Positions 1,045 to 63,425 of a stretch of DNA of 64,000 bases are shown piece by piece. Source of the DNA: Leucoraja ocellata. Taxonomy: Eukaryota. The notes under the pieces are model-generated. The model was not told the origin of the DNA. It did not search any database and saw only the letters and a list, made by a program, of their open reading frames with translations. The position numbers were made by a program, and so were the translations under genes. Location: contig JAWMAR010000086.1 of the NCBI GenBank assembly GCA_036785375.1, forward strand, positions 2,418,001-2,482,000, written 5' to 3'. Within the stretch, counting starts at the first letter, position 1. Every line of letters starts with the position of its first letter.

Positions 1045-1438
1045 ATATAGACACAAAATGCTGGAGTAACTCAGTGAGACAGGCCAGCGGTATGAATATT
1101 GACTTATCTGACTTCAAGTAACCCTTGCTTTCCCTCTCTTCATCCCCCCCCCCTTCCAGTCTGAATGTCCCTCTGATTAAATTTTATCTCTGTATGCTTC
1201 GTTGTCAATTTCTCCTGGCTAACAATGATCTATTCCACATTTTCCTTGATGTTCACCCCCTTTGATGTCTCCTTTTCACACCTCAGACTTCCCTATCTCT
1301 GTCTCTCTCTCACCTGACTCTCAGGCTGAAGAAGGGTCTTGCCCGAAACGTCCAGAGAAGCTGCCTGTCCTGCTGAGTTACTCCAGCATTTTGTGTCTAT
1401 CTTTGGTGTGAACCAGCATCTGCAGTTCCTTCCTACAC
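1045..1438 (+). mobile_element. Penelope-like element 3' end with an inverted terminal-repeat fragment at its 5' side
   Basis: 14-bp TSD aagcaaataatcaa (1031-1044, 1439-1452); encodes PSGMNIDLSDFK* (PLE GIY-YIG C-terminus); hammerhead-like motif at 1326-1352. Confidence 0.8.
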
Positions 1439-1929
1439 AAGCAAATAATCAACTTGGATTTTAAAAGCTAAAGTCTTGCTTGATTAACATCCTGGAATTT
1501 CACAGAGACCACTCTGCCCATTGAATCCATGCTGGACCCATCTTGAGCAATGAATTCACTTCCTTTCCTATGCTCTTTCCTTGCTGCCCTGGAAACTATT
1601 TTCATTTGCAAAGAACCAATAGAATCCTGACAGTAACCAATTTTAGGATGGACAAAACTGGACATGTTTAATGCACAATAGCCACAAGGAAACAACCAGG
1701 GATGTCCAATGAAACCATTACACCCAGAAAGTAGTGAAAACATGGAACTCACACCCGTAGGCGAAAGAAGTACAGTAGTTAAGATGCATTTAAAGTTTGA
1801 TTGGCACTCCATTCTTTACCCTAAACATTCATTATCTCTATCACCAGCCACCTTGTTAACTGCAGTTACTTATTTCGCCTACTCCGACAGTGCCTTCTTT
1901 AATTTCTGCCACAAAGAACAGCAAGGGCT

Positions 1930-2190
1930 TGAGACACATGGAAGCTTCATCACCTGCATGTTCCCCTTCAAAAACCAGCCTGCCTTGGAATTATATTGTT
2001 GTCTTTCATTACCACTGGGTCTAAATCCTGGGAAGTCCCCACCCAGCACCACCATGAAAGTACCTTCTCCAGATGTTCTGCAACATTTCCACAGGGCAAT
2101 TCACCACTATTTACGCAGGGACAACTATCAGCAGGTAATAAATGCTGGCTTTATCAACAGTACCTATATCCCATGAAATGAATGAATCAA
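1930..2190 (+). mobile_element. Old LINE/SINE 3' end (aataaatgctggc...atcccatgaaatgaatgaat tail)
   Basis: Tail resembles reverse-oriented copies near 3335-3420 and 22770-22870. Confidence 0.5.
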
Positions 2191-3334
2191 AAGATAGTTT
2201 GTATGTGCACAAGGGAGAGGGATATTAGAATTATTATGAAAGCGTTAGACGGGGAGAGAGGATTCAATGTCTCACATCCACCATTTGGGCTGAATGGCTT
2301 GTTCCATCCTCCAGCCTTAAGTCACAGTCCCCAGTGGATACTCCTATCATATCCCAGCAGTGCAGGCTAATGCTGACACTAAGCCCTGAGGTTTAAGAGG
2401 ATATCTTCTGAAATAGATTAGCTGGTAATTCCTTCAGTACATTATTACCCATTGAAGTCATGACTTCCTTTACACTTGCTTGCCAATAGTAGCTATTTAA
2501 CTAGTCCTTGGGGGAAGATTCAAATTCCCATGGTGTGACAAAATTTAATACAGAAAAAGCAAATGCTTCCTTTAAAGTGAAATCCCATTATGTTTTCCGT
2601 AAGAAATTGAAATTAACTATGCCAGATATTTGTTGGTTAAATTGTGTATTGTACTGCATGAAATATGTCCTTTCAAAGGCCTAATTAAATTGTGGGTTAT
2701 GATGTTCTGCTGATTTCAAATGATCATTAATTTCCCTCTAAGTGATTTCATGTTGCTTTGTTTACAGCAGTAATTAAAAGCAATATCTATTCATTTCATC
2801 GGAATGTTGTGTTCACCCTGTGAAACTCATCCTAGCCTTAAAGGGAAGTGTTGTCCAATGGCACTGGAAGAGGTCTGGTCCATGTTAACAGTCAGGTGAT
2901 GGTTGCAAGCAGCTGCCCACCTGAAATGAGAATCCAATGGCATCTCCCTGACCTGCTGTCGGACTTGCTCCTTCCGTTTGTACAGACAGACAGGAGGTAA
3001 TCAATGCTGAGCATTGTCTTGTACCTTGGTGACAAGGCTTGACAGTGTTGAACCCAAATCCCATTGATCCCATAGTCAGGTCAAGGACCCTGCACTTGCA
3101 ACAACTGGGACTTGAAAATGGCACCAACTGTGTCTCTGTATACTACTACTATACACCTGTACAGTATCTGAGATGCTTATCTAAGATGTATCTAGGTGCT
3201 TATGTATAGTGATAACGTGTACTGAACTGTAAACAAAGCTGATTTTCACTGCACCTCAGTACATGTGACAGATAAAGCACCATACCATCCAAGTGCTGCT
3301 GTATACAACATTTCTATTTGCAGATTTTAATTCA

Positions 3335-3825
3335 GTTCATTGCCTTTTCAGGATGTGGGTATTGCTGTCAAAGCAAGTTCTTAATGTACATTCCCAATTG
3401 GCCTAAAGGAAGTGCCTTCTGAACCGATCCATTAACAGTGTAACCGGATGTCAAACTTTGGTTCTGCTTTTCTTTCCATGAATGATGCCTGACCTATTGT
3501 GAGTTTTTAACATTTCATATTCTTATTTGGAATGATCTTTAGGCTCTTTCAGAATCAACCACATTGCCACAGTTTGGAGACACACATTGGGCCAGACTGG
3601 GTAAGGAGAGCAGATTACATTCTCTGAAATACATTAGTCAACCAGATGAGTTTCAATGACAATCTGGTTGTTTTGTAATATTTTTATTTTTTAAATCCAG
3701 ATTGCTTAATGGTCTGAATTCAAATTCGGCAATTGCAGCAGTGAGAATAGAACATACATCTCTAGGTTATTAGATCAGTGTTTGGGATGACGTCTAATAA
3801 TTTAATCACTTTTATTACTCTGTAA
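3335..3825 (-). mobile_element. Old chondrichthyan SINE, degraded, with a small PLE-type fragment inside
   Basis: Blocks aatcaaccacattgc, ccagactgggtaagg, cattagtcaaccagatg and gaattcaaattc resemble a common shark/ray SINE body (recalled, not searched). Confidence 0.5.
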
Positions 3826-4787
3826 CACCAGCCAGCTCCTGGATTGTATCCACACTGAGAAACATGCAGTTGGCACAGGGATCCAAGTGACATTAAACTT
3901 GCATTTCAATATTAAATGAGGTTCACCTTTGTTCCAGTGCTGATGTTGGATGGGATGGAAGCTCCAAAGACATGCCAGCATGTAGAATTAAGAATGGGCT
4001 GGTGCGCAGAGCATTGATTACCTTCCCAGGAGAGGGGAGCTGGGTTAGGTATCAAAAACTAAAAAAAAAATATGGCTGTAGAGTTAGGGCAAAAAAAGTT
4101 GAGCTAGAATGGTTTTACAATGAGCCAGTCCAAACTTGACGATGTAAATGGCACCCCCGCTATAGTCATTTTGTAAGTCAGTGATAATAGCAATTAGTCC
4201 GTTTTGTTTCAATAGAAATGTATTGCAACATGTGTACTGGCACTGCTGTCTACCACATGGAAAACATCTGCATCCAATGAAAGGAATAAATAAAATTCGT
4301 GCTGAGGAGCTGTTCTAGCTATAAACTCTCGAAATGACTTTAGGTAGCATGATACAATCATAGCAACTGGAGGACAAAAGGACAAGGTCTCACTGTAGCT
4401 ATGCATCACATCTCTGAACAGAATCTAGCCGGGAGTTGAGTCTTTCTTTAAAAACAAAAATCTAAAAAGCTTCGAGACTGAACACTTGGGAACTCAGTTT
4501 CTTTTTTCAAAACAGGTGTTCTGTTTACCAATGAAAAAGATAGACAAATAAATTGTGATCGTCAACCATTCTACAATCTTTATCAAAATTTAGTGAGCAA
4601 CTGGCTGGAGCTTTCAGTACCACTTCGGATAGACAATTAATATTGATTCTGATTCTACGGTTGTATTGCAGTAAAGGTTCACACAAGAAGAAATGGCCCT
4701 TGGAAACACCAGCAAATTTTCGATATTTGTCACCGCTAAAAGGCATTGGACTTAATTTGAACTTCACTCTTAATTAATTTTCCTAAG

Positions 4788-5272
4788 AACTCTCCTTCCC
4801 ATTCCCACACTGACCTTTCTGCCCTGGGCCTCCACCATTGCCAGACTGAGGGCACATGCAAGTTGGAGGGTCAGCACCTTATATTACGCTTGGGTAGCTT
4901 TCTCATTCACATCCCCTTTTTTCTTGCCCCTCTGCCTTTCCTCCCCTGTGCCCCACCTGGACTACCACCAGATTCTCCCCAACCCCACTTCCCTGCTACT
5001 TTCCTCCCTCTAGCTTCACAATTTGCAACTGTTCAACCATCTCACACCTTCTGCTTTTATCTCTGCCTATTGTTTCAACCATCTGCTTATCAAAACCCTC
5101 CCCTCACCCGCATCCACCTATTACCTGCCAAGCTTTGTCCTGCCTCTCCCATCTTCTAGGTTTCTCCACTCCCACTACAATCAGTATGAAGAAGGGTCCC
5201 GACCCAAAACATTCCCTGTCTATGATCTCTAGAGATACTGCCTGACCTGTTGACTTATTTGTGTCCTTTTGG
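4788..5272 (+). mobile_element. Penelope-like element 3' fragment (GIY-YIG C-terminus and terminal repeat)
   Basis: Translates NSPSHSHTDLSALGLHHCQTEGTCKLEGQHLILRLGS; degenerate hammerhead-like motif near 5186-5213. Confidence 0.8.
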
Positions 5273-6503: not shown

Positions 6504-6817
6504 GGCGGCACAGTGGTGCAGCAGTAGAGTTGCTGCCTTACAGCGCTTGTGGCACCAGTGACTTGGGTTTGATCCTGAATATGGGTGCTGTCTGTACGGA
6601 GTTTGTCCGTTCTCCCTGTGACCTGCGCGCGTTTTCTCCGAGATCTTCGGTTTCCTCCGACACTCCAAAGACGTACAGGTTTGTCGGCTAATTGGCTTGG
6701 TATAAGTGTAAATTGTCCCTAGTGTGTGTAGGGCAGCGTTAATATGCGGGGATTGCTGATCTGCGTGGACTCGGTGGGCCATAGGGCCTGTTTCCGCGCT
6801 GTATCTCTAAACTAAAC
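6504..6817 (+). mobile_element. tRNA-derived SINE (HE1/V-SINE type), near full length
   Basis: ggcggcacagtggtgcagcagtag head with A box; gggtttgatcc B box; gggcctgtttccgcgctgtatctctaaactaaac tail. Confidence 0.85.
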
Positions 6818-6897: not shown

Positions 6898-7003
6898 CCG
6901 TAACGAGTCTGAGGAAGGGTCTCGACTTGAAACGTCACCCATTCCTTCTCTCCAGAGATGCTGCCTGGCCCGCTGAGTTATTCCAGCATTTTTTGTCTTA
7001 CAG
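6898..7003 (+). mobile_element. Solo PLE terminal-repeat fragment with hammerhead-like motif
   Basis: ctgaggaagggtctcgacttgaaacgtc (6909-6936) followed by ...gatgctgcctggcccgctgagttattccagcatttt; flanked by catttttt repeats. Confidence 0.75.
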
Positions 7004-9870: not shown

Positions 9871-9883
9871 CGCAAGGTCACTA

Positions 9884-10204: not shown

Positions 10205-10390
10205 ACCTGTTGTTCTCAGCGAGTCAGGCAGCATTTGTGGGGGGAAATGGAATTTAACCTTTCAGGTTGAGATCCTTCTTCTGGACAGTCCAAATGAAGG
10301 GTCGCAGCCTGAAAATCATCTATCTGTTTTCTTCCACGGATGCTGCCTGACTCACTGAGTCCCCCATGCAGTTGTCCAGCATCTGCCTTC
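10205..10390. mobile_element. Inverted pair of PLE terminal-repeat fragments, degraded
   Basis: ctcagcgagtcaggcagcat ... gatgctgcctgactcactgag. Confidence 0.65.
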
Positions 10391-10698: not shown

Positions 10699-10865
10699 AA
10701 TTTAGAACCAAAAAACTGGAGATGCTGGTTTATACCAAAGATAGGCACAAAGTGCTGAAGTAACTCAGCAGGCCAGGCAACTGGCATTTCAGGTTTGGAC
10801 TCTTCTGCAGTCTTCAGAAGATGCTACCTGACCCGTTGAGTTACTCCATCACTTTGTGTCCACCT
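10699..10865. mobile_element. Inverted pair of PLE terminal-repeat fragments
   Basis: 14-bp TSD tatgtaattgtaac (10685-10698, 10866-10879); cacaaagtgctgaagtaactca / tgagttactccatcactttgtg arms. Confidence 0.8.
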
Positions 10866-10907: not shown

Positions 10908-11335
10908 CTTAAGAAGGAACTGCAGATGCTGGAAAATCGTAGGTAGTCAAAAATGCTGGAGAAACTCAGCGGGGTGAGGAAGCATCTATGGAGCAAAGGA
11001 AATAGGCGACATTTCGTGTCGATACCCTTCTTCAGGCTGATGTGGAGGTGGGGGGGGGGGGGGGGAGAGGGAAGGAGAAAGGAAGAGGTGGAGACAGCGG
11101 GCTGTGGGAGAGCTGGGAAGGGGAGGGGAACGAGGGAGAAAGCAAGGACTACCTGAAATTGGAGAAGTCAATGCTCATACTGCTGGGGTGTAAACTACCC
11201 AAGCGAAATAGGAGCTGCTGCTCCTCCGATTTGCGGTGGGACACTCTGGCCATGGAGGAGGCCCAGGACAGAAAGGTCGGATTCGGAATGGGAGGGGGAG
11301 TTGAAGTGCTGAGCCACCGGGAGATCAGGTTGGTT
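10908..11335 (-). mobile_element. Penelope-like element 3' fragment (GIY-YIG C-terminus and terminal repeat)
   Basis: ORF 11149..11361 ends RKSEEQQLLFRLGSLHPSSMSIDFSNFR*; hammerhead-like motif at 11008-11035 (-). Confidence 0.85.
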
Positions 11336-12226
11336 TTTGTGAACCGCCGCTCAGTTCTCATATGTTCTAATGTTAGAGGAAATGGACATTATGGATAATA
11401 GACGGGGTCCAATCTAGCAGAGTGCTTTGTGCTGGATAATATTCAGCCTCTTCAGTGCTGTTCAAGTTGCACTTATTCAGGCAGGTGGAGGGTATTTATT
11501 ATGCTTCTAACGTACGTACCTTGTTGGTAACGGGAAGGTATTGGTGTCATCAGGAGATGTCGCTTCCAACTGGAAAACAGATTCTGACCTGTTCTGCTGA
11601 AGGTTTTGATATGGTTGGTCAACTTGACTTTCTGGTATCTCCCAGGATGTTACTAATAGGAGATTTGGCAACAGCAATGCAATCGAATGTCATGAGTACA
11701 TGGTTACATTCATCTTCCTTTGAGATAGTTATTTAAATGGGGGAATGGGATTGATAGCATTCCATTAAGACCTGACACAGACTTGATGGACTGACGGACC
11801 TCCCATGTCAAAAAAGGAAAATGCAAGCCTGCCACGTGCAGTGAAGTGTAACTTGGCATTTATTAATTCAAGTGTTAATTTTATTTGGGCCTTGATGGAT
11901 GCAAGTACAGGCTGCGCCACAACCTGGATGCAGTGTATGATTCCAGCCAGTGCAGAGATTTCCCCCCAACACCCACCAACATCCAGATCATTGCAGTCTT
12001 CATTTCACCTCTGGAATTCAAATCTCTGGTCAACATTTTTCCTAAGGCTATGATAATCTCAGGAACAAAATGCTCTTGTCAAAACCCACATATAACAAGC
12101 CATTGGAGATAGAAGGATTTTGGAGCTATATGGACAATGCAGGTTGTAGGTAATTTGTAGGTAATTTGCCTATGCAGAATTTATAAATCACTACACAAAA
12201 ATCTGAGTTGCAGAATAAAATTTGCT

Positions 12227-12846: not shown

Positions 12847-15800
12847 TAGAAAATAGGTGCAGGGGGGGGGGGCATTTGGCATTTCGAGCCAGCACCGTCA
12901 TTCACTGTGGTCATGGTTGTTTATCCACAACCAGTAACCCGTGCCTGCCTTTTCCCCATATCCCTAGATTCCACTAGTCCCTAGACCTCTCTCTCTTTTA
13001 AATCCATCCAGCGAATTGGCCTCTGCTGCCTTCTGTGGCAGAGAATTCCACAATTTCGCAACTCAATGGGTGAAATTTTTTTTCTCATCTCAGTTTTAAA
13101 TGGCCTCTCCTTTATTCTTAGACTGTGCCCCCTATTTCTGGACTCCCCCAACATTGGGAACATTTTTCCTACATCTAGCTTGTCCAGTCCATTTATAATT
13201 TTATATGTTTCTATAAGATCTCCTCTCATCCTTCTAAATTCCAGTGAATACAAGCCCAGTCTTTCCAATCTTCCCTCATATGACAGTCTTGCCATCCCGG
13301 GGATTAACCTCGTGAACCTTTGCTGCGCTGCCTCAATAGCAAGGATGTCCTTCCTCAAATTAGGAGACCAAAATTGCACACAATATCCCAGATGTCGTCA
13401 CTCCAAGGCCCTGTACCACAGCAGAATTGCCTCTTTACTCCTATACTCAAATCCTGTCAATATGAAGGGCAACATGCCATTAGCTTTCTTCACTACCTGC
13501 TGTACCTGTGTGTTTACTTTCAGTGACTGGTGTACAAGGACACCCAGGTCTCGTTGCACTTCCCTTTTTCCTAATCTGACACCATTGCGATAATAATCTG
13601 CCTCCTTCTTCTTGCTGCCAAAGTGAATAATCTCACATTTATCTACATTATACTGCATCTGCCATGCATCTGCCCACTCACTGAACCTGTCCAAGTCACC
13701 TGCAATCTCCTAGCATCCTCTTCGCAGTTTACACTGCCACCCAGCTTTGTGTCATCTGTAAAGTTGTTAGGTAGACAAAAATGCTGGAGAAACTCAGTGG
13801 GTGAGGCAGCATCTATGGAGCGAAGGAAATAGGCAAAGTTTCGGGTCAAAACCCTTCTTCAGACAAGTTGCTAGTGTTACTTTTAATCCCATCATCTAAA
13901 ACATTAATATATATTATAAATAGTTGTGGCCCCAGCACCGAGCCTTGCAGCACTCCACTCGCCACTGCCTGCCATTCAGACAGGGACCCGTTTATTCCTA
14001 CTCTTTGTTTCGTGTCTGCCAACCAATTCTCTATCCATGTCAATACCCAACCCCCAATATCATGTGCTCTAATTTTCCCCACTAATCTCCCGTGTGGGAC
14101 CTTATCAAAGGCTTTCTGAAAGTCCAGATACACTACATCCACTGGCTCTCCTTCTTCCATTTTACTTGTCACACCCTCAAAAGCAGGATTTCCCCTTCAT
14201 AAATCCATGATGACTTGGACCAATCCTTTTACTGCTATCCAAATGCTTCGTTATTACTTCTTTAATAATTGACTCCAGCACCTTCCCCACCACCGATGTC
14301 AGGCTAACTAGACTGTAATTCCCCGTTTCCTCTCTCGCTCCTTTCTTGAAAAGTGGGATAACATTAGCTACTCTCCAATCCACGGGAACTGATCCTGAAT
14401 CTATCGAACATTGGAAAATGATCACCAATGCGTCCACGATTTATAGAGCCACTTCCTTGAGTACCCTGGGCTGCAGACCATCAGGTCCTGGGGATTTATC
14501 AGCCTTTAGTCCCATCAGTCTGCCCAATACTATTTCTCACCTAATGCAAATTTCTTTCGGCGTCTCTGTCTCCCTAGATCCTGTAGTACATCTGGGAGAT
14601 TGTTAGTTCTTCCTTAGAGAATAGAGAACCAAAGCACCTGTTCAACTGTTCTGCCATTTCCTTGTCCCCCATAATAATTGCACCTGTTTCTGCCTTCAAG
14701 GGACCCACATTGGGCTTTACTAATCTTTTTGTCTGAGCACACCTAAAGAGGCTTTTACTATTCTTCTTTATATTCTTGGCCAACTTACCCTCGTACTTCA
14801 TCTTTTCACCCCGTATTGCCCTTTTTGTTACTTTTTGTTGTCCTTTGAAAGTTTCCCAATCCTCTGGCTTCCAGCTACTCTTTGTTATGTTATACACCTT
14901 TTCTTTTACTTTTATTGCATCCCTAACTTCCCTTGTCAGCCACAGTTGCCTCTTACTCCCCTTAGAATCTTTCATCCTCTTTGGAATGAAATGATCCTGC
15001 ATCTTCTGGATTATGCTCAGAAATTCCTGCCATTGCTGTTCCACCATCATTCCTGCTAGGATCCTTTTCCAGTCGACCTTGGCCAGCTCCTCTCCCCTGC
15101 CTTCATATTCCCCTTTGTTCAACTGCAAAACTGACACTTTTGATTTAACCTTCTCCCTCTCAAATTGCAGATTAAAACTTATCATATCATGGTCACTACC
15201 TCCTTGCAGTTCCTTTACCTTGAGTTCCCTTATTAAATCTGGTTCATTGGACAACACTAAATCCAAAACAGGCCTCTCTCTGGTAGGCTCCAGTACAAGC
15301 TGCTCTAAGAATCCATCTCGGAGGCACTCTACAAACTCCCTTTTTTGGGGTCCAGTCAGAACCAACCTGATTTTCCCAGTCTACCTGCATATTAAAATCT
15401 CCCACAACCACCTTTGTTACATGCCAATTTTAACTTCTGCCGCAACTTGCACCCTATATCCAGGCTACTGTTTGGGGGCCTGTAGATAACTCCCATTAGT
15501 GTCTTCTTACCTTTACAATTCCTCAATTCTATCCACAGTGACTATACATTGTCAGTCCCCATGTCACTCCTCGCAAGGGACTGAATTTCATCCCTCGCAA
15601 ACAGAACTACCCCACCTCCTCTGCCCACCTGCCTGTCCTCCTGCAGCCATGTCTTTGTAATCCCTACAATATCATATCTACCAATCTCTAACTGAGCCTC
15701 AAGCTCATCCACTTTACTCCTTATACTTCGTGCATTCATATATAATACTTTTAAACCATTACTCACCTCACCTTTCACATTGATTCCTATTTCACTTGGC

Positions 15801-16670: not shown

Positions 16671-17834
16671 AGCAGGATTTTCTAGATATGCAACCCACTG
16701 AGATGTAAATATGATTGGAACTATTTTATGACTTAAAGGTTTAATGTCGATAAACGTCCAAATGGTCTGCCTCTGCCATCCACATATGTCGATAGGTTTT
16801 TAAACTCTCTTGCCTTGGCAGGATGAGCGAAACATGACATTTTTAACAAAAGCTGTGGTCAACCCTTTGTGTGACAATAGCCTTTTTAATCTCAGAAATA
16901 AAACCATATGTGGAACCACACTGTTCAGTCATGCACTTCCACTTTAGTATTGGGAAATATTGATATTCCACACAGACTTGCCTGGAGGAACCAATCCAAG
17001 ATACTGTGCTCACAGCTGTGAGGAACATTTGCAAACAAAGTGCAAGAATGTATTGGCACAACTAGTACAAGGAGTGCATAAATTTCAGATCACTATCTAC
17101 TGCAGCAAATGCACCATTCCTGTGTTTATCGGGCAATCGTACTATGATGAATGAGGTAAGGGAGGTAGGAGGACGCTCCTTCCAGTTCCAACAACTAACA
17201 CGACTGGCCAAGATGCAAGACTAAATGTAAGCTCTTACATGCTAAAAAAGAAATTGTGAATTATTTGGCAACAGTCAAATTAATCTGCTGTCTATTTGGC
17301 TTTCTCTTGCTTTCGAATGTCTGTGCTTTACAGGAATTTACTTTTAAAAATATTTTTTGAAATGGCTAAACATGACAATTAATCACAAGTGACAATCAGC
17401 TTATAACACTTCCGAAGGATGTGGGGTGTACAACACTAATAGTATGTGGTCCAAGCTTAGTACACTCCAGGCAATCACTTACTGAACATGTTTCTATAAC
17501 ATTGCACGGAATAATGATGAATGATGTTGCGGTATTTAAACCACAAGATATGCGATTCTCTCTGGGGCATCAGCAAAAGGACATGAGAAATGATGCACTG
17601 GCTCTTAACATGAGAGCGTGACACGTCATACCATTGTTAAATGTCACAGAAACAAAGCTTTATGGACAAATCCTAAATGACCATATAAAAAACAGAAATT
17701 TATTTTTCATTATCCAACATTTACATTATCCACATATTCACCTGAAATCCCAAGGGTCACAGCCAGAATTAATTGCCAGGCACTTAAACAATTAAGAAGA
17801 GCAAAGTCGGAAATATGATAAAAAAAAACATAAA

Positions 17835-18408
17835 AGGCACAAAGTTCTGGAGTAACTCGGCAGGTCAGTCAGCATCGCCGACAAACATGGATAGATGACA
17901 TTTTGGGTTGAAACCCTTCTTCAGACTGATGGGTGGGTGGGTGGTGGGGGGGGGGGGGGGTTGTGGAGACAAGAAAGCTGGACGAGGGGAGAGACAGAAC
18001 ATATTGTAGCACGTAATAGATGGACACAGGCAAGGGTTTTTTGATAGGAATATAGTGCGAACAAAGGCCAGAGCTAAAAGTAGATGTGTGAGTGGACAGA
18101 AGAATTGTGAATTGTGAAGCCAGGGGGGGTAGTAGCAGGAGGGAGTGGGGAAGGAAGAAATAGGTGGGAGTCCAGGTGAGTCACAAGGGAGAGGAGTGGA
18201 GGGAGAAAGAAGGGATGAAAGGGGATGTGTGAGTTGGTTGGTATGAGGTTGGTATAAAATTGGAGAATTCAATGTTCATACCATGGGATTGTAAGCTACT
18301 CAAGTGGATTATGAGGTGCTGCTCCTCCAGGTTGAGTGTGGCCTAACTCTGGCAATGGAGGAGTGCCAGGAAGGAAAGGTTAATATGGGAATAGGAAAGG
18401 GAGTTAAC
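17835..18408 (-). mobile_element. Penelope-like element 3' fragment
   Basis: 18260-18408 is homologous to 11155-11310 (GIY-YIG C-terminus); terminal repeat with motif at 17897-17924. Confidence 0.8.
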
Positions 18409-19854
18409 ATGATAAGTTGTGTATTAACCAGGATCTGCAATTGCTTGTTTCCAGATTTAAAAAAAAAATCATAATTGATGTATTATGTGGTTAGAAACCT
18501 TCACTACTTTGATAAGTATGACCTTTTAGAACATTCCCAACTTATGATTTGTTGCATGGTTCAGTCCGCATCATCTATTGATCTTGCACACATTCACACG
18601 CCATAAGGGCAGCAGTGATGCTCACAGTGTTGCTCATGATGAGTTTAACCTACATGGGGGGTTTTCAAGTACGTAAGCCCCTGTCCATCTCTTGCCTGAT
18701 GTGTAATGGGTCTGATAAGCATGTTTCCTGGGTACACAATCATCTGCAGTTCCTTCTTGAACAGCATGTTTCCTGGATTCAGTTGAGGCAATGACTGATT
18801 GTCTAGACACAGGGGATGATGTAATTGTGGCATTTATAGTTTTTCAGAAGGTATCAAATAAGACATCTCAGAAAAGGTTTGTTACAAAGATTCTGAAATG
18901 CTGCAGCATTGATCAAAACTTTGTGGATTGTCTGAAAGTCAAAGGTCAGGATTAAAGGATGCTCTTTGGTTTGGAACAAGTTTGGAAAGAGTATCCCATA
19001 GAGATGGCTGGGCTACTTTTTTTCTCTCGACATGTTTCTGACTTGCACTTTGATATAGAAATGTTGCTGTCAAAATATGTAACAACATTAAAGTAAAGCA
19101 GTTGACAGTGAGGAAGACGTCGAGGCAGCAGATCAATGGTACATGCAATTAATTTGGAAAAGCGTAAGACAAGATACATTTTAGGAAGATAAATGATGAA
19201 AAGGAAGCTCATGGTAAGATGCTGTTGGGACGATACATAGCAGAACATATAAATAATTACTGCCTCAGTTAGAGTGGATGTTTATTCATAGAAAGGACAT
19301 TGTAGCTGCTGAGATCAAACAACTGATTTATCAAAATGGTTGGGCTGAGAAATAATAGCTAACAGGAGGGTTTTAGTAAGAATACAGTATATCCACAAAT
19401 GGGAAAACTAAGAGATCAGAAAATAATATTTAAAATTATAGTATAATAAGCAGAAAAAGTTGATGTACACTGGTGGAACCACAGTCACCCGCTGAGTTAC
19501 TCCAGCACTGGTTTTTTTGCACAAGGTTTTGGAGGTTGACAGCTGGTGAGATTCCTTCTCTGGTTGAATAGATGAGTTCCTACTTGCATTTCATTAGATG
19601 TTGGAGATATAATGGTAAATAAATACTTCTAATTAAACCATGGGTTAAGCTTTGTTAATTTGTATTGGTGGCATTTTACCTTAATCAGGTTGATATGCAG
19701 TTTATTTTCCACGTGAAATGTGATACCAGGGGTTTTGAAATGTGTTTTGAAACCCATTGCATGTTTAACAGCAAGCTCCACATTTTGCTGACATAATTAA
19801 CATCGACACTGCTATCGTTTCTTTCAAAGGAAATGTTTTGCCAACCAACCCAGT

Positions 19855-22039: not shown

Positions 22040-22227
22040 TAACACAAACAATCTTCCACCTTAGTCCTGCTGCAGGATCTTGACCCAATATGTTAGCATA
22101 CTTCTTTTGTCTGCCAGATGCTGCTTGAACCATTGAGTTTTTCCATCTTACTGTTCTTTGTTACAGATTCCAGCATCTATAGTTTATTTTGTGTTTTGAT
22201 CAGTCATTAACAAACATTGTGCATTGT

Positions 22228-22703: not shown

Positions 22704-23340
22704 TAACTCTGTGGCAGTATTAATCTGCATGTTTGTTTTTACTCAATACATTTTTAAAAAATCATATTCTTTATTAAATATAGGTACTGTTGGCAAAGCC
22801 GACACTTAAGACCTGTCCATAAGTGCTCTCGAAAAGTTAATGGTGAGCCCTATTCTTGAACCACCGCTGTCCTTCTGGTGCTCAACTCAATAGTGCCAAT
22901 GGAAATATTCCATTACACTCCTGAATAATAGATGTTGGAACATAAGAGTGCCCAGAAGTGAATCAGTCATGACAGCATTCTCACCTCTGACCAGGTCTTA
23001 CAGTGTTTTTGTTGGCTGTTCTATTGGAATTTTAGTGAACTAGTGACTCCAAGATATTGCTGTTATTCTACTTAACGTAATTGGCAGGTAATTAGACTCT
23101 TTCATGTCAGAGGTAATAAACGCCTGACACTTTTGTGGCACAATTATAACTTGACCTTTACCAGCCATGCTTAGGAGTCATTGCAGGAGCTTCACAGGGC
23201 AGTGTCACATGCCAAATCATATTCAGCAGCCTCTTCCTCCACCCATAAATTCAGATGAGGGAATTTTGCTGATGACTGCCAAATGTTTAACTTCATCTGC
23301 AACTCCTTTCCTCAATAGTCAATTTGTTTGCCACCAAGGA

Positions 23341-23615
23341 TAGACACAAAATGCTGGAGTAACTCAGTGTGTCAGGCAGCAAGTCTGGAGAAAAGGAGTA
23401 GGTGATGCTTCAAGTCGGAACCCTTCTTCAGATTGAAATAAAGAGATGGGGGGGGGGGGGGGGGGGGGAGGTGCTACTGGAGGCGAGAGACGGTAGAACA
23501 AAACAGGGCTGGCAACAGATGACCTCAGGAAGGGTGGAGTCCATAATGACCCGTTGTTGGCTGAGGAGGATTTGCTAACGACAGGAATACAAGGATGTGG
23601 ACACTGGAGCTTGTA
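23341..23615 (-). mobile_element. PLE 3'/terminal-repeat fragment with poly-G tract
   Basis: tagacacaaaatgctggagtaactcag...cccttcttcaga. Confidence 0.75.
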
Positions 23616-23759: not shown

Positions 23760-24106
23760 TATAGACACAAAGAACAGTAAATACTGATGAACAAAAAAGG
23801 CACAAAGTGCTCCTGCAGCTCAGTGGGTCAGGCAGAATCTCTGGAGAACATGGATAGGTGACGTTTCAGGTTGGGACCCTTCTTCAGATTAATGCAATGT
23901 TGACTCATGTCAATATCATGTTGAAGAAAGGTCCCCGAAACATCATCTGTTCTCCAGAGAATGGGGTTAGGAGGCAGAGATAGATCAGCCTTCATTGAAT
24001 GGTAGAGTAGACTTGATGGGCCAAATTGCCCAATTCTGTTCCTACCACTTATAAGCTTTTGACCTTATGGCCTGCGAGTTATTCCAACACTGTGTCTTAT
24101 AATAAT
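23760..24106. mobile_element. Inverted PLE terminal-repeat pair containing a short CR1 tail (about 23960-24065)
   Basis: 9-bp TSD acagctaaa (23751-23759, 24107-24115); motif at 23860-23887 (-). Confidence 0.75.
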
Positions 24107-30271: not shown

Positions 30272-31462
30272 CTTTTGCAACCTGGATTTGATCATCAGCA
30301 GACCTCAATCAGTGTGGATAGGAAACAACATCCCTTCCTCAAGGACCAGTAAGACAAGTGCATCTCAACATGTGCATATCCCCCTGCTCAACTCAGCTGG
30401 ATGAGTGGTATCTCAACAACAACCTCTCCCTCAACATCACCAAGACCATGGAGCTAAAAAAATGTGCAGGAAGGAACTGCAGATGCTGGTTTACACCGAA
30501 GCTGGATAAAAAATTCTGGAGTAACTCAGCGGGTCAGGCAGCATCTCTGGATAATAGGAATGAGTGACATTTCAGGTAGAGACCCTTCTTTGGGTCCAAA
30601 GAAGCATCTCAACCCGAAATATCCCCCATGCCTTCTATCCAGAGATGCTGCCTGTCCTGCTGAGTTAATCCAGAATTTAGTGTCTATCCGAGGAGCTGAT
30701 TGTTGATTTCAGAATAGGAAGTTGGGAGATCATATGTCATTTTTTATTTGTTTGTCGGTGGTGGACAGAGTAAGCAGCTTCATATTCCCGGGGATTGATG
30801 ACTTGCACCTGGCACATTGATGTAATCATGAAGAAAGCACGCTCTTGCCTCTATCTTCTTGGAAGTTTAAAGAGAGTACATACATGTCCAAATAGTGAAA
30901 CAAACTTCAACAGCTGTATTGTAGAAAGTAGAAACAAGGAACTGCTGGTTTACAAAAAAGATACAAATTGCTGGAGTAACTCAGTGAGTCAAGCAGATCT
31001 TTGGAGAATATGAATAGTTGATCTTTCAGGTCGGGATCCTTCGTCAAACTTCACAAAGTATCCTGACTGCTTGCATCATGGCCTGGCATGGCAATTCCAA
31101 TGCACAGGAATGCAAGAGGTGGATTCAGCCAGGTCCGTCATGGGCACAGCCATCCCCTCCATCAAAAACATCAATAAGAGACACTGCTTCGAGAAGGTGG
31201 CATCTATCATCAAGGATCCCCAGCATATGGTTCTTCCATATACTCTCTTCTCACAGCTACCATCGGACACGAGGTACAGGAGCCTGAAATCTAACACCAC
31301 CAGGTGGAGAAACAGCTACTCTCCTACAGCTATCAGTTTCTTGAACTAACCTGCATGGTCCTAATCCTACTTTGAAAAAGGAACATGACATGCCTGTGAT
31401 GCTGCTGCAAGAAGATTTCCGTTGTACCTCTACCTCACACTGCTTGTGCATGTGACAATAAG
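30272..31462 (+). mobile_element. Older Rex1/Babar-like LINE fragment interrupted by two PLE inserts (30456-30691, 30931-31054)
   Basis: WYLNNNLSLNITKTMEL, TWHIDVIMKKA, LFSQLPSDTRYRSLKSNTTRWRNSYSPTAI; insert TSDs ggagct and aaagta. Confidence 0.8.
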
Positions 31463-49381: not shown

Positions 49382-49514
49382 GTGTAGAAAAGAACTGCAG
49401 ATGCTGGTTTAAATCAAAGATATACTCAAAATACTGGAGTAACTCAGCGGGACAGGCAGCATCTCTGGAGAGAAGAAATGGGTGACGTTTTGGGTCGAGA
49501 CCCTTCTTCAGACT
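49382..49514 (-). mobile_element. Solo PLE terminal repeat, well preserved
   Basis: gaactgcagatgctgg...ggagtaactcagcgggacaggcagcatctctggag...gacgttttgggtcgagacccttcttcagact; short ctgac flanking repeat. Confidence 0.8.
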
Positions 49515-51769: not shown

Positions 51770-52650
51770 ACTTAAAGTTGGGGGAGTCAATTGCAAAGAG
51801 AACATAAGGAGGCCACACTGATGTGGGTAAGTGGTGAGAAGGCAAAGATCTGTTAAGTTGGGCACAATATGGGAAAATATAACATTGTCCATTCTAACTG
51901 TAAAAATAATAAAGGACTTGACACAACCATGAAAGATTAGAAAGCAGTGAAATACACGGACACAATTCACAAACGAAGGCTAGGAGACTAGTGAGGAAAG
52001 CCACACAAATATTAGTCTTTATTTCTAGGTCAACGCAACACAAAGACAGGTAGGTTGTCCCTCACTTATGTGGAGCTACAACAGCTCTTGTTATTGAAGC
52101 CAGATGCAGGTTTGAGCAACTCAGCACCTCAGGCAACATCCCTGGAGAACATGGATATGTAGTGTTTCGGGTTGAGGCCCTTCTACAGACTTATTTCAGG
52201 TGTGGGGGAGGGAGGAGAAAGAAAGCTAGAAAAGATGTGCTCCACTGTTCCCTCCACTGCAATCAGTCTGAAGAAGGACCCCAACTTGAATCGTCACCTG
52301 CCCATGTTCTCCAGGAATGCTGCCTGACCCGCTGAGTTACCCCAGCATTTTGTGTCTTTCTTTGGTTAAACCCGCATCTGCAACAAGTTTTGGGTTTGTT
52401 GAAAGCAACTGAAAGAAGGATTTTTCTACCAGTACCTGGAATGGGGGAGCTGTCATATAAGGAAAGGTTAGATAGGGGTGACTTGCATCAGAAGCAGTTT
52501 AGAAAAGTGAGAAATGACTCAGTGGAAAAAGAACAAGATACTGAGGAGTGTTGAAAGGTGGATGTGGGAGGATGACTCCTCCAATGCAAGAATCTATAAA
52601 AAGGAGTCACAAGAGATAAACAAGAGATGTTGAATAAAGAAGCCACGAGG
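51770..52650 (+). mobile_element. Old CR1 RT C-terminal remnant with an inverted PLE pair inside (about 52120-52382)
   Basis: cctggaatgggggagctgtcatataaggaaaggttagatagg; PLE arms ctggagaacatgg / ccatgttctccag. Confidence 0.6.
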
Positions 52651-57326: not shown

Positions 57327-57821
57327 AGATACAAGGAACTGCAGATGTTGCTTTACAAAAGAAGACAAAGCAAGTAACTAGGCAAGTCAGGCGGCACCTC
57401 AGGAGAACATGGATAGGCCATAGATGTTTTGGGTCTGGACATGGATAGTCTACAGAACATGGATAGTTGATGTTTTGGAGAAACACAGAACTGCAGAGGC
57501 AGGCTTATACCAAAGGTAGATTCAAGATTCTGGAGTAACTCAGCAGGTTAGCCAGTATCTCTGGAGAAAAGGGAATAGGTGACATTTCAGGCCGAGTCCT
57601 TTCTCTCTCTTCTTCTTCAAAAAAGGGTCCAGCCCCAAAATGTCACCTATTCTTTTCCCCAGTGAAGCTGCCTGAGTTACTCCAGTACTTTAAATCAATC
57701 TTTAGTCGACGTTTTGGGTCTGGTCCCTTCTTCAAACTCTGAAGAAGGATCCTGACCCATTATGTCACCCATCCTTGTCCCCCTGACTCGCTGAGTTTCA
57801 CCAACATTCTGCATCTTCTTC
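57327..57821. mobile_element. Nested PLE terminal-repeat elements (inner element 57479-57702)
   Basis: Outer 14-bp TSD tgcttcaattatgg (57313-57326, 57822-57835); inner 15-bp TSD tagt(t/c)ga(t/c)gttttgg. Confidence 0.8.
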
Positions 57822-59959
57822 TGCTTCAATTATGGGGCTTTTTAAAAAAACAAAACATTTGTGAGTCCCACTCTGAGATTCGGTATTGAAGGAATTGTGA
57901 AATGAATAACATTTCTTTGGTTCAATCGGTGTACAACTCAAGCTCAGGAAAATAAAATCAAGGTATCAGCACTGAACATGTCTGAAATATCAACAACCAA
58001 TTGCCTGAATGTTTAGCACTGGCAACTAATGAAGATTTTGCCCATTAATCTACAATATTATATGTATTTAAAACATAGAAGTGAAGATACTTGCTCTTTG
58101 CCTTTAAGACACATACCAAGTAATTGAATATCCTTTTAATTCCATCTGACTGCCACAAGGCAGGTCTGGATTATTAGAGCACACTTCTGGAGGTACAGGA
58201 CCTAGAACCTCCTATTCCTATTCCATGGCGCTGACTCATTCAAGGACACACACCAAAGACCAACTGCAACAAGGACATCATGTCACCAGTGTTCAATATC
58301 AAAGCAGCCCTTGCAGGTAACAGTTCCATCTCATCTCGGCTGTTACTAAAGTTCCTACACTGTCTGAGAAATTAAAGTATTTCACCCTGTAAGCAGTTAT
58401 ACAAACAGGCCCTTGCCACTCCCTTCTTAAACTGGTGTTTGTACTCAAGAAATAGGCAATGCACTAACAGCATTTTCTAGACTCTCACAACATGAGCTTT
58501 AGTTCAATTAGATAGGGAGACTTTGAAAGGAAGCAGTGCCATTGTTCTGGTGCATGGAACAAGGCGAACTACAATGTTTCTCATATTTTATAGCATGCCA
58601 CACTCCTTAAGCATGAGTAATTTCCTTTGAAATACACAGACTGCTTTAGGTGGGGTATGACCCGAGCATTAAACAGCAGGCTTCATTCTCTCTCTTGTGG
58701 ATGACACCCTACACCACAGCACAGGAACCCGGATTTGTGGACAAAATTAAATGTTCCGAGAAAAAGAGAACAATTGGGAAATACAGAGACAAAAAAATAA
58801 AAAAAAATCATCTTTTGTTTTGTTTTCCTGTTCCAAGCTAACCATGTGAAGCCCAGCTGCCAACAAAAAAAGTATGGATATGGGAATAAAATGATGCTGA
58901 CGCATTGGATCCTCACTTGATGTTTGTGGTAGTGGTGCGTCTGGCTACAGCCTTAATCAGAAACCTGCAGTGTACTAAGTAACTTGGCCTGCGGTGATGT
59001 AGGTGGCCCAGTGATATGATGCTAATGGCAGGACTGCAGGTGAATGCCAGGTTATTCCAGTAAAGATGATGATGCACATTCTAATGGGGAAAATACACAG
59101 AACTTGAAGAAGTCTGAATTAGTTTGCAGTGTTGGTTTTGTTGGGGGAAGGGACGGGGGTGGCACTTATTCCAAATCTGATTATTTCTCTGTGCTTGTTT
59201 ATAATCAGTAATTTATAATTAGTGTGGAAGAAAGTCAGGAGACTCCCTCCTCACAACCCACAGTGTTGACTCTGTAACTAGGCCTGGCAATACCCATAAA
59301 CTTGAAAGGAGCTGGGAAATGGCTCAGAGCAAAGGATACGATGCTCAACTAAAGGTAAACTTAGACCTAGTGTCAGGAAGTTCTTCACTCCAAGAATAAT
59401 CGCCAGTTGAAATCAGGTAATTAAATTATTTCGGGAATTATTCAATTCTGAATAGGTAAATTAAAACAAGCTAAGTAACCTTCCTCTTATGTAAGAAGAA
59501 CTATTTTACAGTTTTAACAATAGTCATACTATTGGAAAGTATTTACGTTGAAATAAAATGTGATAAAGTGCTGCCTAACCGCAAAAGAAAATCATTCATT
59601 CCAGTTGCCCTGAGCAGCATCTAGTTGCGTTATGTATTGGGTATCGTAACATAAAGTGACTGATACAATAAAAATCAAACAATTTGAAAATAAAAATATA
59701 ATTCTAGAAAGTCAAATCAATGCTATAGTTTTATTGTCACTTCTTCATTATTTGGATCTTTAATAAAATTGTGACTCTTACTTTCTAAGCTTTGTATCAC
59801 ATGTTACGACTCCCAATGTCTGCCCAAAGTTCACAGCACAGAACTGTCAAAGTTTCTGATTTGCATTTGCATCACAATTCCAATCTTCAATACTATTTTT
59901 ATGGCTAGGTGTATACAGAGTGGATTGAACTATATAATTTTACAGGATATGGCTAGAAT

Positions 59960-60367: not shown

Positions 60368-60642
60368 GACTATGAACCATCAAAAATCATAAATCGACAT
60401 AAAAAGCTACTTTTCAACACTACAAAATGTATTTTTGCTTTTAGAAATAATATTTGGAAAATAAGTTTAGGTGATGCAGATAATGTTGAAAAGTAGTTTT
60501 TTATGTTGATTTATGTTTTTTGATGGTTTATAGTCCATCAAAAATCTGCATCATCTAAACTTATTTTCCAAATAATATTTCTTAAAGCAAAAATACATAT
60601 TGGAGTGTTGAAAAGTACTTTTTTAATGTCGATTTATGATTT
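60368..60642. repeat. Complex AT-rich inverted repeat (A-B-A'-B'-A')
   Basis: Read directly; segment coordinates are given in the findings. Confidence 0.88.
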
Positions 60643-61455
60643 AAGAATGCTTAAATGTGGTTAATATTTGCTATAATTATATTTGATCTATTGAGATAAA
60701 AACTATGAACAATTATTTTTTGCCAGTGAAAATAAATTCAAATATATCAACAAAGAACACAGAAACAATGCACAAACAATTACTGAGTTCTGAGAAGCAT
60801 TGAAAATTGATAGCTCAACGAACAATTACTCTAGTTCAGAAAGGAAACTTAATTTTAAAAACTAATATGAAATATCAAACCACTCTAAGTTCGCTCTGGA
60901 CCACAATTATTTGCAGGATGTTAGTTTCATGTTAATATCACACCTAAGAAGGAAACTACAGAACAAAATCCAGTGAAAGTAACTGACCCTCCGCACCACA
61001 TCAAAACTTGCAGTAAAATGAAGAGAGGAGCTGACGCCACGGCAGGGGCACGACTTGTTGTGCATATAGGCTCATCCTATTAACAACGGGCAAAGTAGCA
61101 AGAAGGAAAAAAAGGGAACACAAAAAAAAAGACATAACAAGATGAGTTCATGCATTTTTTGCTGCTGGCAGAGATAATGTGGGCGTCCACCTAGAGCAGA
61201 AAGTCACAGTGTAAATCACAAAACAGAAAATACCCCACTATTAACAAATTAAAAAACACACACAATCACACGTCAATCAGCAAAGACATCAAGCTTGTGA
61301 GCAACAGTGTTACTGTACTTTCACGCATCTAATTTATGGGGAACTATTTTTGTCATCAGGAAAGATGAGGAATGTTCAGATCTTTCAGCTAGTTGTAGGT
61401 GAAGTTCATGCATTGATGCACAATGTGGATTTTTGTTTTCAGTGACTCAATCCCC

Positions 61456-61976
61456 AAGCACAGTGGTAGAGTCGCTGCCTTACAGCACCCGAGACCCAGG
61501 TTCAATTCTGTCAATGGGTGCTGTCTGTACGGTATATTCTCCCTGTGACCATGTGGGATTTCTCTGGGAGCTCCGGTTTAATACCACATCCCAAAGACGT
61601 GTAGGTCTGTATATTTTATCTCTGTTTGCTTTGTTGGTACCTTCTCTTAGCTAACAATGATCTATTCTACATTTTACTTGATCTCCATCTGCTTTGCCTC
61701 GTTTTCACACCTTACACTTCCTTATCTCTGTATTTCCCTCTCCCCTGACTCAGTCTGAAAAAGGGTCTCAAGACGAAACTTCACCCATTCGTTCTATCCA
61801 GAGATGCTGCCTGTCCCGCTGAGTTACTCCAGCATTTTGTGTCTATCTTCAGGTCTGTAGGTTAGGTCTGTAGCTATTGGCTAAATTGTCCCTAGTATGT
61901 AGGATAGAACTGGTGTACGGGTGATTGCTGATTGGCGCAGACTTGGTGGGCCTGTTTCAATGCTGTATTTCTAAAC
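61456..61976 (+). mobile_element. HE1-type SINE interrupted by a PLE 3' fragment (61612-61850)
   Basis: SINE head gtggtagagtcgctgccttacagc; 9-bp TSD aggtctgta (61603-61611, 61851-61859); the insert is homologous to 1180-1400. Confidence 0.85.
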
Positions 61977-63254
61977 ACGTGATGACAGCAATATTCTGTC
62001 TAATTGGATTATCGAAATTCATTGCTTTATCCTCAGGCAAATGGATCTCATTCAGGATCTGCAGTAATGAAGTGTTCACTTTGCATGTCAGGATACTGGC
62101 TACTTTCAACTCAAACAAAGAATTCCTCAGTCGTATGAGTGAAAGCCACGGCAGAGGAATTGTAAAATGTGAAAAGTCAGAACAAAACTGAAATACCGTA
62201 ACTTCTACATGTGAGCAGAAAGGGTTTCATCTTCGACAGTGCTCCATTATCACAATCGAATGGCTGCCTAATTTTACTGCTCCAGATTTGGAAGGGATTG
62301 CAACTTAGGATACTTGAGGATGCTTCCTGCTATAACACAGCTGGCACGAGGAAGTGCTCAAAGTTCATATGGAGTTCTAGATAAGAAGTAGTAAAGTCAA
62401 TCAGTGCGGAAACAGACTCTTCGGTCAAACTTGTCCATGCCGACCAAGATGTCCCTTCTACGCCAGTCCCATTTAAAGTCATAGAGACATAGAGTCAATG
62501 GAACTAGAGGGAAATTTACAAAAATGATTCTTCACATTGAGGGTATTTAGGATGGCAAATTCTCTTTACAATGCCATGAATGCTTTGTGGATCTGTCAAT
62601 ATTTTTGTTTTTTTTTAAAGAGAAATCAAGCAGATTTCCTTTGCTTGTTATCCAACATAGCCAGTACCCAGAGAGCCTCTACCTTACACACTGACTGGCT
62701 TCCTTAAATGGAATTCAGTCCAGAAATAGACCGATTTGTTATTTGATTGGCCTTCTTTTGTTGGAGAGTCTTATGACATTACAGAGACAATTTGTACAGG
62801 AGGAATTAAACTCCAAGCACTGGGGACAAAGTCGAGTCACAATTTACCAGATTTTTTTGCCTGAAAGTAGAGTATTCAGAGAAAGGATATCGAAAGCTGC
62901 AGTTAATTTTATGTTAACATTCCGAAAGAGTTATGATATGTTATCAAAATAAAAAAACTATGGTCCAGAGCAATGACACATTTGTGCAAGGTTGCTACCT
63001 GGACACATCCTTGCCAGATGCTACTTTTAAAAAGTAGCCAACAGCAATACTCCCTGATGTCCATTCACTTTCCTCGTTTCTCTTTGAATCCAAACTTTGC
63101 ATACTTACATGCTCATCAGAATCAAAGCATTCGTCGGGACCTTTCCTATGTCTGGGATTCTTAGCTAAAATACAAGGATCTGGTCCATCAGCTAAAAAGT
63201 CTGATTAAGGAAGAAACACAACACCAGAGAAACAAAAACACATTCCGTTGTTGA

Positions 63255-63425
63255 AACAAAGCACTGCAGATGCTGCTTTACCAAAGAAGGCACAAAATGC
63301 TGGTAACTCAGCAGGTCATGCAACATCTCTGGAGAACATGGATTAGTCTGAAGAAGGGTCCCAACCTGAAATGTTACTGATCCATGTTCTCCTGAGATGC
63401 TACCTAACCCGCGGAGTTGGTTCTC
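63255..63425. mobile_element. Inverted PLE terminal-repeat pair
   Basis: catctctggagaacatggat / atccatgttctcctgagatg arms around ctgaagaagggtcccaacctgaaatgtt. Confidence 0.75.

What the first reader, a model, noticed from the sequence alone, without database searches (positions are those of the whole stretch)
1326..63375. High-copy Penelope-derived mini-elements carrying a minimal hammerhead-ribozyme-like motif
Seen: about 15 copies of a motif with consensus CTGAAGA-A-GGGT-(CTCG)-ACCC-GAAA-CG-TC, e.g. 1326-1352(+), 6909-6936(+), 11008-11035(-), 13835-13862(-), 17897-17924(-), 23860-23887(-), 49484-49511(-), 61755-61782(+) and 63348-63375(+). Each lies in the same ~130-bp repeat, which in longer copies follows a GIY-YIG C-terminus (…EEQ.L.FRLGSL.P..MNI.FS.F*). 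Established: CUGANGA/stem II/GAAA/UH is the hammerhead core, and Penelope-like terminal repeats carry minimal hammerheads whose palindromic stem III (here ACGT) is proposed to act as a dimer. Inference: this is a mobilised, non-autonomous, retrozyme-like family at roughly one copy per 3-4 kb. Caveat: stem I looks only about 2 bp (gt/ac in some copies, gc/gc in the copy at 11008), there is an extra A after the core, and most copies are mutated, so activity is unproven.
Basis: partly seen in the sequence, partly recalled or inferred. Interest (0 to 1): 0.7.

Follow-up and report, generated by a model that had tools for sequence, protein, structure and literature searches.

The report
Penelope retrotransposon ends carrying minimal hammerheads
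These repeats are short, decayed end pieces of a known kind of jumping gene (a Penelope-like element, still present intact elsewhere in this probable shark or ray genome) that carry a known self-cutting-RNA motif; they are ordinary except that they are extremely numerous and about half begin at the motif's front edge, which likely marks where the element's RNA starts.

Summary
The motif is real: 17 core-covering copies among 31 fragments in the window, 0 in a reversed control. Genome samples give one per 4.1 kb, about 0.8 million per assembly, 25 of 243 intact. It is the published minimal hammerhead in the terminal repeat (pLTR) of an autonomous Neptune-type Penelope element; a 1,217-aa intact copy with 99%-identical repeats exists in this genome. 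The extra A is a described hallmark; the claimed stem I covariation is a private mutation. It is not a retrozyme: no tandem arrays, and short copies mix with long ones in every subfamily. Extras: about half the copies start at an initiator-like TCA(+1)GT three bases before the core (79 starts against 13 expected), not at the cleavage site (5 against 4.5), which likely explains the 2-bp stem I; head-to-head pairs share one target-site duplication and pair one tailed with one tail-less arm (49 of 61). Unexplained: all 9 full-length copies that reach +1 run past it. Cleavage is untested. This scan has reported the same family many times, on this and other genomes.

The parts
1044..1431 (+). Truncated PLE 3' end (last EN codons, 3' UTR, hammerhead motif at 1326-1352, leader, tail) with an inverted tail-less stub at 1044-1084
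4780..5271 (+). Truncated PLE 3' end with GIY-YIG remnant; motif at 5186 (C3 mutated)
6906..6998 (+). Mini copy starting at +1, tail-less; motif 6909-6936, the only window copy passing the strict descriptor (with wobbles)
10215..10360 (.). Old head-to-head pair
10714..10861 (.). Head-to-head pair truncated inside the leader (one tailed arm, one tail-less)
10914..11340 (-). Truncated PLE 3' end with frameshifted GIY-YIG C-terminus, UTR, motif 11008-11035, tail
13769..13864 (-). Mini copy (+2 to +97) of the youngest subfamily, inserted in another LINE; motif 13835-13862
17825..18400 (-). Truncated PLE 3' end with EN remnant; motif 17897-17924 (upstream limit approximate)
23339..23600 (-). Copy with partial UTR; motif 23404-23431 (upstream limit approximate)
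23791..23950 (.). Mini copy (+3 to +101, minus strand; motif 23860-23887) with a short plus-strand stub at 23922-23950
30471..30688 (.). Head-to-head pair, tailed arm 30471-30590(-), tail-less arm 30599-30688(+)
30954..31050 (-). Old mini copy, +1 to +98
49389..49514 (-). Mini copy from exactly +1 to the tail end; motif 49484-49511
52114..52382 (.). Head-to-head pair with both cores
57333..57829 (.). Cluster of five nested fragments including two head-to-head pairs
61600..61851 (+). Copy with 3' UTR; motif 61755-61782 (upstream limit approximate)
63263..63418 (.). Head-to-head pair; motif 63348-63375 on the plus arm
19487..19509 (+). Small leader fragment without the core (similar core-less fragments at 22115-22183 + and 48317-48370 -)

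Best explanation
The repeats are dead, separately inserted end pieces of an autonomous Neptune-type Penelope-like retrotransposon whose terminal repeat holds the known minimal hammerhead motif, and the short ones are likely by-products of the element's own reverse transcription rather than a family of their own. Shown: parent structure (repeat, 1,217-aa RT plus GIY-YIG ORF, repeat; 3.9-kb unit), two 3' ends about 35 nt apart, a 5' pile-up at +1 to +3, target-site duplications, tailed plus tail-less head-to-head pairs. Inferred: Pol II starts at the A of an initiator-like TCA(+1)GT, so the RNA has only three bases before the core and helix I cannot exceed 2-3 bp; the element's protein nicks both target strands and starts reverse transcription inside the RNA at about +97 or +126 to +135 (as shown in vitro for anole PAc); priming in the first repeat of an uncut RNA runs out at +1 and yields a 95-130-bp mini, and priming on both strands yields the palindromic pair. 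The ribozyme probably matters only in source transcripts, as a weak dimeric or protein-assisted cutter; the dispersed copies are probably inert.
For: Intact ORFs of 1,217 and 1,240 aa; direct repeats 96.6-99.7% identical in 10 loci; leader runs straight on into the ORF in full-length copies. RT, CX4CXXC linker, CCHH GIY-YIG, DKG motif visible; nearest named homologues are shark and ray proteins at 56-69%. First-look candidates fall from 131,534 (EN) to 28,981 (RT) to 852 (N-terminus) (different query types). 153 of 222 core-covering copies have no element UTR upstream; among the 110 without an inverted partner the match to consensus drops from T 0.82, G 0.69, A 0.54 to background at C 0.35, T 0.26; 79 starts at +1..+3 against 13.4 expected, 5 at +32 against 4.5. 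Target-site duplications: 20 of 91 solo minis against 1.1% in shuffled pairings, 28 of 61 pairs against 2.3%. Head-to-head 91 against tail-to-tail 6; 49 of 61 pairs are tailed plus tail-less, p=1.4e-7. Papers: internal RT starts, both strands nicked, uncut RNA is the template, protein-assisted hammerhead (PMC11167929); Penelope internal Inr/DPE promoter (PMC2377424).
Against: No direct start-site data: no RNA end pile-up at +1 or +32 in three fragmented cDNA libraries. The largest start class is +2, not +1 (mixture estimate 23% at +1, 36% at +2, 14% at +3). All 9 independent full-length copies that reach +1 run past it and none stops there, so an RNA starting at +1 cannot be their direct template. 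The DPE-like match is weak (4 of 5, read from the sequence). No compensatory change exists in helices I or II in this genome, only wobble-compatible ones; base-matched core positions are not significantly more conserved than the invariant leader. The predicted monomer fold is a different hairpin, helix I probability at most 0.03.
Confidence: 0.75

Rival explanations
1. The minis are a self-propagating, SINE-like non-autonomous family: each keeps the internal promoter and the RT start sites, is transcribed on its own and is re-copied in trans.
For: Fixed ends and target-site duplications; motif reads are 13,257 of 12.9 million in one RNA run; pLTR sequences alone mobilise DNA in trans in a rotifer (PMC3846280, passages).
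Against: Short and UTR-bearing copies occur in all 8 subfamilies with the same mean identity (0.898, 0.894) and no separate clustering (p=0.27; 127 copies, 81 columns, so low power). Most minis lack the two pyrimidines before +1. RNA depth has the same shape as DNA depth along the element and 87-96% of reads in that run go on into unlike flanks, as passive read-through would give. No clear RNA-editing scar (2 borderline copies).
Confidence: 0.15
2. One reading: a retrozyme-like family spreading through hammerhead-cut, circular monomers.
For: Hammerhead motif, Penelope origin and high copy number; retrozymes derive from pLTRs (bioRxiv 10.64898/2026.07.22.740005, parts 1-3 read).
Against: No arrays of hammerhead-bearing units; no copies piling up at the cleavage site; the only regular arrays are of a 67-bp unit that lacks the CUGANGA half of the core.
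Confidence: 0.04
3. The 5' boundary marks something other than a transcription start: a splice acceptor (pyrimidine tract plus CAG), a fixed RT stop or jump point, or a junction favoured by the near-palindrome around TCAG-T-CTGA.
For: The sequence looks like an acceptor; D. virilis has an intron ending at helix I; starts spread over +1 to +3; full-length copies pass the point.
Against: Duplicated target DNA, not a carried exon, abuts the 5' end; a staggered-start model fits better than a donor-like model (-logL 312 against 327, 4 more parameters); no joint with GT..AG ends at this place is listed in RNA (lists were cut); solo copies show the boundary as well as pairs.
Confidence: 0.2

Closest known systems
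Minimal hammerheads (min-HHR) in pLTRs of metazoan Penelope-like elements (Cervera and de la Pena 2014, PMC4209133; parts 1-2 of 4 read)
   Same: Same core, unpaired base between 9 and 10.1, G10.1-C11.1, palindromic 15.2/16.2, location in the pLTR, mostly dispersed single motifs, opposite-strand pairs.
   Different: Helix I is 2 bp (paper: usually 4-5; 2 in D. virilis); helix II is 4 bp. About 86,000 descriptor-intact and 0.8 million homologous motifs estimated here against about 4,000 (coelacanth) and 9,000 (Xenopus) there, and 126,247 canonical motifs in axolotl (PMC7229834, passages); methods differ.
EN+ Penelope-like elements, Neptune clade (Craig et al. 2021, PMC8557442; Arkhipova et al. 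2013, PMC3846280; passages)
   Same: Single RT plus C-terminal GIY-YIG ORF, Zn-finger linker, heavy 5' truncation, partial tandems, adjacent inverted copy, 30-40-bp tail at one end, 8-20-bp target duplications.
   Different: Most copies are only the 95-130-bp repeat end and share a sharp 5' boundary; ORF is long (1,217 aa) with a proline-rich repeat region.
PAc Poseidon element of Anolis (Frangieh et al. 2024, PMC11167929; parts 1-2 of 4 read)
   Same: Two RT start sites bounding the tail, both target strands extended, uncut RNA as template, weak hammerhead.
   Different: Other clade; in PAc the start codon lies inside the hammerhead, here the long ORF starts at +168. The in vitro results are for PAc, not this element.
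Non-LTR retrozymes (PMC7229834, passages; bioRxiv 10.64898/2026.07.22.740005, parts 1-3 of 5)
   Same: Type I hammerhead, pLTR ancestry, many monomer copies.
   Different: No tandem 170-400-nt units, no canonical hammerhead, ends not at the cleavage site.

Membership tests
PLE minimal hammerhead (min-HHR) | CUGANGA, GAAA and UH core in order | tested here: met
   Invariant in 8 subfamily consensuses apart from CpG decay in one old cluster; H17 is C or U
PLE minimal hammerhead (min-HHR) | Unpaired base between 9 and 10.1; G10.1-C11.1; palindromic 15.2/16.2 | tested here: met
   Consensus; features listed in PMC4209133
PLE minimal hammerhead (min-HHR) | Helix I of 4-5 bp with compensatory changes | tested here: not met
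   2 bp, wobble changes only; a 2-bp helix I is described for D. virilis, so this does not exclude membership
PLE minimal hammerhead (min-HHR) | Lies in both flanking repeats of a PLE | tested here: met
PLE minimal hammerhead (min-HHR) | Self-cleavage as dimer or with protein | not testable with these tools
   No genomic or RNA trace at +32, which does not test catalysis
EN+ PLE, Neptune clade | One ORF with RT and C-terminal GIY-YIG | tested here: met
   Pfam RVT_1 E 7.9e-5 and GIY-YIG E 0.012, both below the curated cut-offs; motifs seen directly
EN+ PLE, Neptune clade | CX2-5CXXC linker, CCHH, DKG motif | tested here: met
   Seen in the ORF; definitions from PMC8557442; the linker excludes Poseidon
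EN+ PLE, Neptune clade | Partial tandems, inverted truncated copy, tail, target duplication | tested here: met
EN+ PLE, Neptune clade | RT tree placement with Neptune rather than Nematis | not tested
   No labelled references held; assignment rests on the linker and on only Neptune and Poseidon being reported from vertebrates
Non-LTR retrozyme | Tandem units each with a complete hammerhead | tested here: not met
   0 of 22 assessable neighbours share a spacer; 3 of 40 close direct neighbours have both cores, all irregular and decayed; 1 Mb of 3.4 Gb sampled
Non-LTR retrozyme | Unit-length linear and circular RNAs ending at the cleavage site | tested here: inconclusive
   No end pile-up, libraries unsuited
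SINE-like non-autonomous family | Fixed ends and target-site duplications | tested here: met
SINE-like non-autonomous family | Own lineage apart from the autonomous element | tested here: not met
   p=0.27, mixed in all 8 clusters; low power
SINE-like non-autonomous family | Transcription from its own promoter | tested here: inconclusive
   RNA depth mirrors copy number

The most novel reading that the evidence does not exclude
The genome records two template classes set by the ribozyme: uncut, capped RNA starting three bases before the hammerhead gives about half a million sterile minis that stop at +1, while RNA cut at both repeats and joined into a unit-length circle gives the fertile partial tandems, which never stop at +1 (9 of 9). 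That would be genomic evidence that PLE hammerheads work in vivo and are needed to make copies that can transpose again, with promoter initiator and ribozyme written on the same bases.
Probability: 0.15. Interest if true: 0.7.

Novelty: new member of a known kind. Interest (0 to 1): 0.33.

Why it matters
As a class it is known. Its value is as a dense record of how Penelope-like elements copy themselves, which is still open: hundreds of thousands of insertions fix the two RT start sites, show that the two target strands use different ones, and show that cut RNA is not what gets inserted as short copies. An intact young element is at hand for biochemistry. It may also be among the largest genomic sets of hammerhead motifs, though most are broken.

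Tried and rejected
Rfam scan: no hammerhead or HDV-like hit at E<=5. Stem I covariation: rejected. Excess conservation of the core over the leader: not significant base by base; critical A positions do vary less than the two non-critical A's (39 of 858 against 32 of 342, p=0.003), a weak hint of selection in source lineages that sequence context could also give. Cleavage at the UC just before +1 as source of the 5' boundary: rejected by inspection, helices I and III cannot form. The 456- and 454-bp spacings in the window are not a shared unit. Relatives from metagenomes: 30 loci, no hammerhead recovered in 72 kb, most cover only RT, so cross-species covariation was not tested. Sequencing-run search: no RNA holder listed on record; raw RNA runs were added by species label and their identity with this genome's species is not shown. 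Within-element against between-element repeat distance (2.0% against 2.8%, 7 loci) does not separate circle from read-through. Lunse et al. 2017 could not be opened; I saw only its citation in a review. Searches for a prior description of this family in sharks or rays found none (four searches of open full text); Repbase and Dfam are not held and supplements of the papers were not read, so it may well be catalogued there.
Full report
Observation. All nine listed sites hold the motif. A profile built from 12 window copies finds 31 fragments in the window and none in the reversed window; 17 cover the whole core. Rfam gives no hammerhead match at E<=5. The window lies in a 3.44-Gb assembly; the nearest named protein homologues of the parent element come from sharks and rays, so the host is probably a cartilaginous fish.

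Numbering. +1 is the A of TCAGT just before the core. The core C3 is +4, helix II is +12 to +23, GAAA is +24 to +27, and the predicted cut lies between +31 and +32.

The parent. Walking upstream from genome hits gave a GIY-YIG domain, then RT, then full-length copies in which the repeat runs straight on into the ORF start. L255 has an unbroken 1,217-aa ORF between direct repeats 99.0% identical over the 607 bases compared, unit 3,934 bp; L268 has 1,240 aa; 2 of the 20 loci fetched were unbroken from this start codon. The CX4CXXC linker, CCHH and DKG motifs fit Neptune or Nematis and exclude Poseidon (definitions in PMC8557442, passages); no tree was made. So the '130-bp repeat' is the hammerhead plus the leader of the next unit, that is the end of the pLTR with its optional tail.

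Abundance. In 100 arbitrary 10-kb stretches (999 kb, mostly from large contigs) there are 566 fragments, 243 covering the core: one per 4.1 kb, about 0.84 million per assembly (bootstrap 0.71-0.97 million; the assembly holds duplicated regions). 25 of 243 pass a strict descriptor, about 86,000. Eight clusters are 82-94% identical to their consensus, with CpG decay dominating.

The ribozyme. The consensus has every listed hallmark of the minimal hammerhead of Cervera and de la Pena, including the extra base before helix II (PMC4209133, parts 1-2 of 4). Subfamily differences inside it are all tolerated ones: loop II, U-A to U.G in helices I and II, C to U at the cut site. There are no compensatory changes; the C-G pair at 11008 is private (1 of 47). 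Copies decay at core positions about as fast as in the invariant leader, with one weak hint of selection on source lineages. The monomer is predicted to fold into another hairpin, helix I probability at most 0.03, in line with the weak, dimeric or protein-assisted activity reported for other PLE hammerheads.

Ends. 3' ends are bimodal, near +97 and at or beyond +126, up to +135 in the youngest subfamily; in PAc this tail lies between two RT start sites (PMC11167929). Of 222 copies covering the start of the core, 153 have no element UTR upstream; among the 110 of these without an inverted partner, agreement with the consensus falls to background just before +1. Alignment starts number 79 at +1..+3 against 13.4 expected from the 4.5 per base seen at +5..+56; the cut site has 5. 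Part of the raw peak could come from poorly aligning pyrimidine-rich UTR, which is why the flank test matters. A mixture fit puts 23%, 36% and 14% of such starts at +1, +2 and +3 (129 copies). TCA(+1)GT fits the initiator consensus (BBCA+1BW, search listing); D. virilis Penelope has an internal Inr/DPE promoter (PMC2377424, passages) and a rotifer pLTR has an Inr-like TCACT (PMC3846280). If the RNA starts here, only three bases precede the core, which would explain the 2-bp helix I. This is inference.

Insertion events. Target-site duplications flank 20 of 91 solo minis (score 8 or more; 1.1% in shuffled pairings; 2 of the 15 best are element-internal repeats and should be discounted), so minis are separate insertions and their 5' flank is target DNA, not a spliced exon. 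Close opposite-strand neighbours are head-to-head 91 times and tail-to-tail 6 times; 49 of the 61 pairs with both ends classifiable (of 95) join a tailed and a tail-less arm (p=1.4e-7), and 28 of those 61 share one duplication of 8-20 bp (2.3% in controls). Each pair is thus one event, matching nicking and extension on both strands from two start sites. Inverted copies with a one-sided tail are described for PLEs.

Not a retrozyme, probably not a SINE. No shared spacers among same-strand neighbours; short and long copies are mixed in all clusters. In RNA runs added by species label the motif is abundant (13,257 of 12.9 million reads) on both orientations, most reads go on into unlike sequence, depth along the element follows DNA depth, and no ends pile up at +1 or +32; these libraries cannot show capped or cut ends.

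Against the simple model. Of 18 independent full-length or near-full-length loci picked by N-terminal similarity, 9 reach +1 and all 9 continue upstream (48 to over 1,100 bases); none stops at +1. Their templates must have been longer than a unit: circles after hammerhead cutting (proposed in PMC4209133), read-through RNA, or a strand jump between repeats. The sample is small; this is the basis of the novel case.

Verdict. A real feature and a new member of a known kind: minimal hammerheads in the ends of a Neptune-type Penelope element, mostly dead. Earlier notes of this scan report the same family and the same 5' boundary (17 notes in at least 13 genomes by words; 69 notes fitting in this genome); I had reached the reading before looking and tested it here.

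Noticed in passing
L211, L218 (also L070, L077, L087, L124): Minisatellite of a 67-bp unit (+24 to +90 of the leader) in arrays on both strands; it lacks the CUGANGA half of the core, so it is pLTR-derived tandem DNA without a ribozyme.
   Followed up: partly
L125, L150, L207: Solo minis with an inverted tail placed directly before +1 and a tail-less 3' end (3 of 63 tail-less, 0 of 28 tailed), as if the tail alone were copied on the other strand.
   Followed up: partly
L094:1124-1160 (RNA and DNA lays): Short 32-34-bp tandem duplications spanning helix II and the cut site occur in RNA reads and in contigs and in genome copies (L090, L155).
   Followed up: no
leader +53 to about +100: An ATG conserved in all subfamilies opens a short frame upstream of the main ORF start at +168 (read); no intron joint was seen in RNA.
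   Followed up: no
L255 ORF, roughly residues 160-490; L087:3428-4011: Long proline-rich, tandemly repeated region of variable length between the N-terminus and the RT.
   Followed up: no
window 12871-15994, 26823-29686, 32874-34690: Decayed LINE ORF2 fragments, CR1-like by recalled motifs (weak Exo_endo_phos_2 hit); the mini at 13769-13864 sits inside one with an apparent 8-bp duplication.
   Followed up: no
window 25251-25946 (+): LINE C-terminal remnant with a zf-RVT hit, E 9.2e-5.
   Followed up: no
window 6504-6718, 12249-12326, 12628-12842, 61479-61556: A second dispersed short repeat; looks like a tRNA-derived elasmobranch SINE (label recalled, not tested).
   Followed up: no
window 21756-22026 and 60375-60528: Long inverted repeats, possibly MITEs, that drew chance miRNA matches.
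   Followed up: no
window 61640-61870: A 100% identical second copy lies about 183 kb away on the same contig, a recent duplication or an assembly duplicate; such duplicates inflate genome-wide counts.
   Followed up: no
P0002, P0008: Stingray and devil-ray proteins named as a kinase-domain or chitinase-domain protein are largely this PLE's ORF: annotation fusions or exonised fragments.
   Followed up: no
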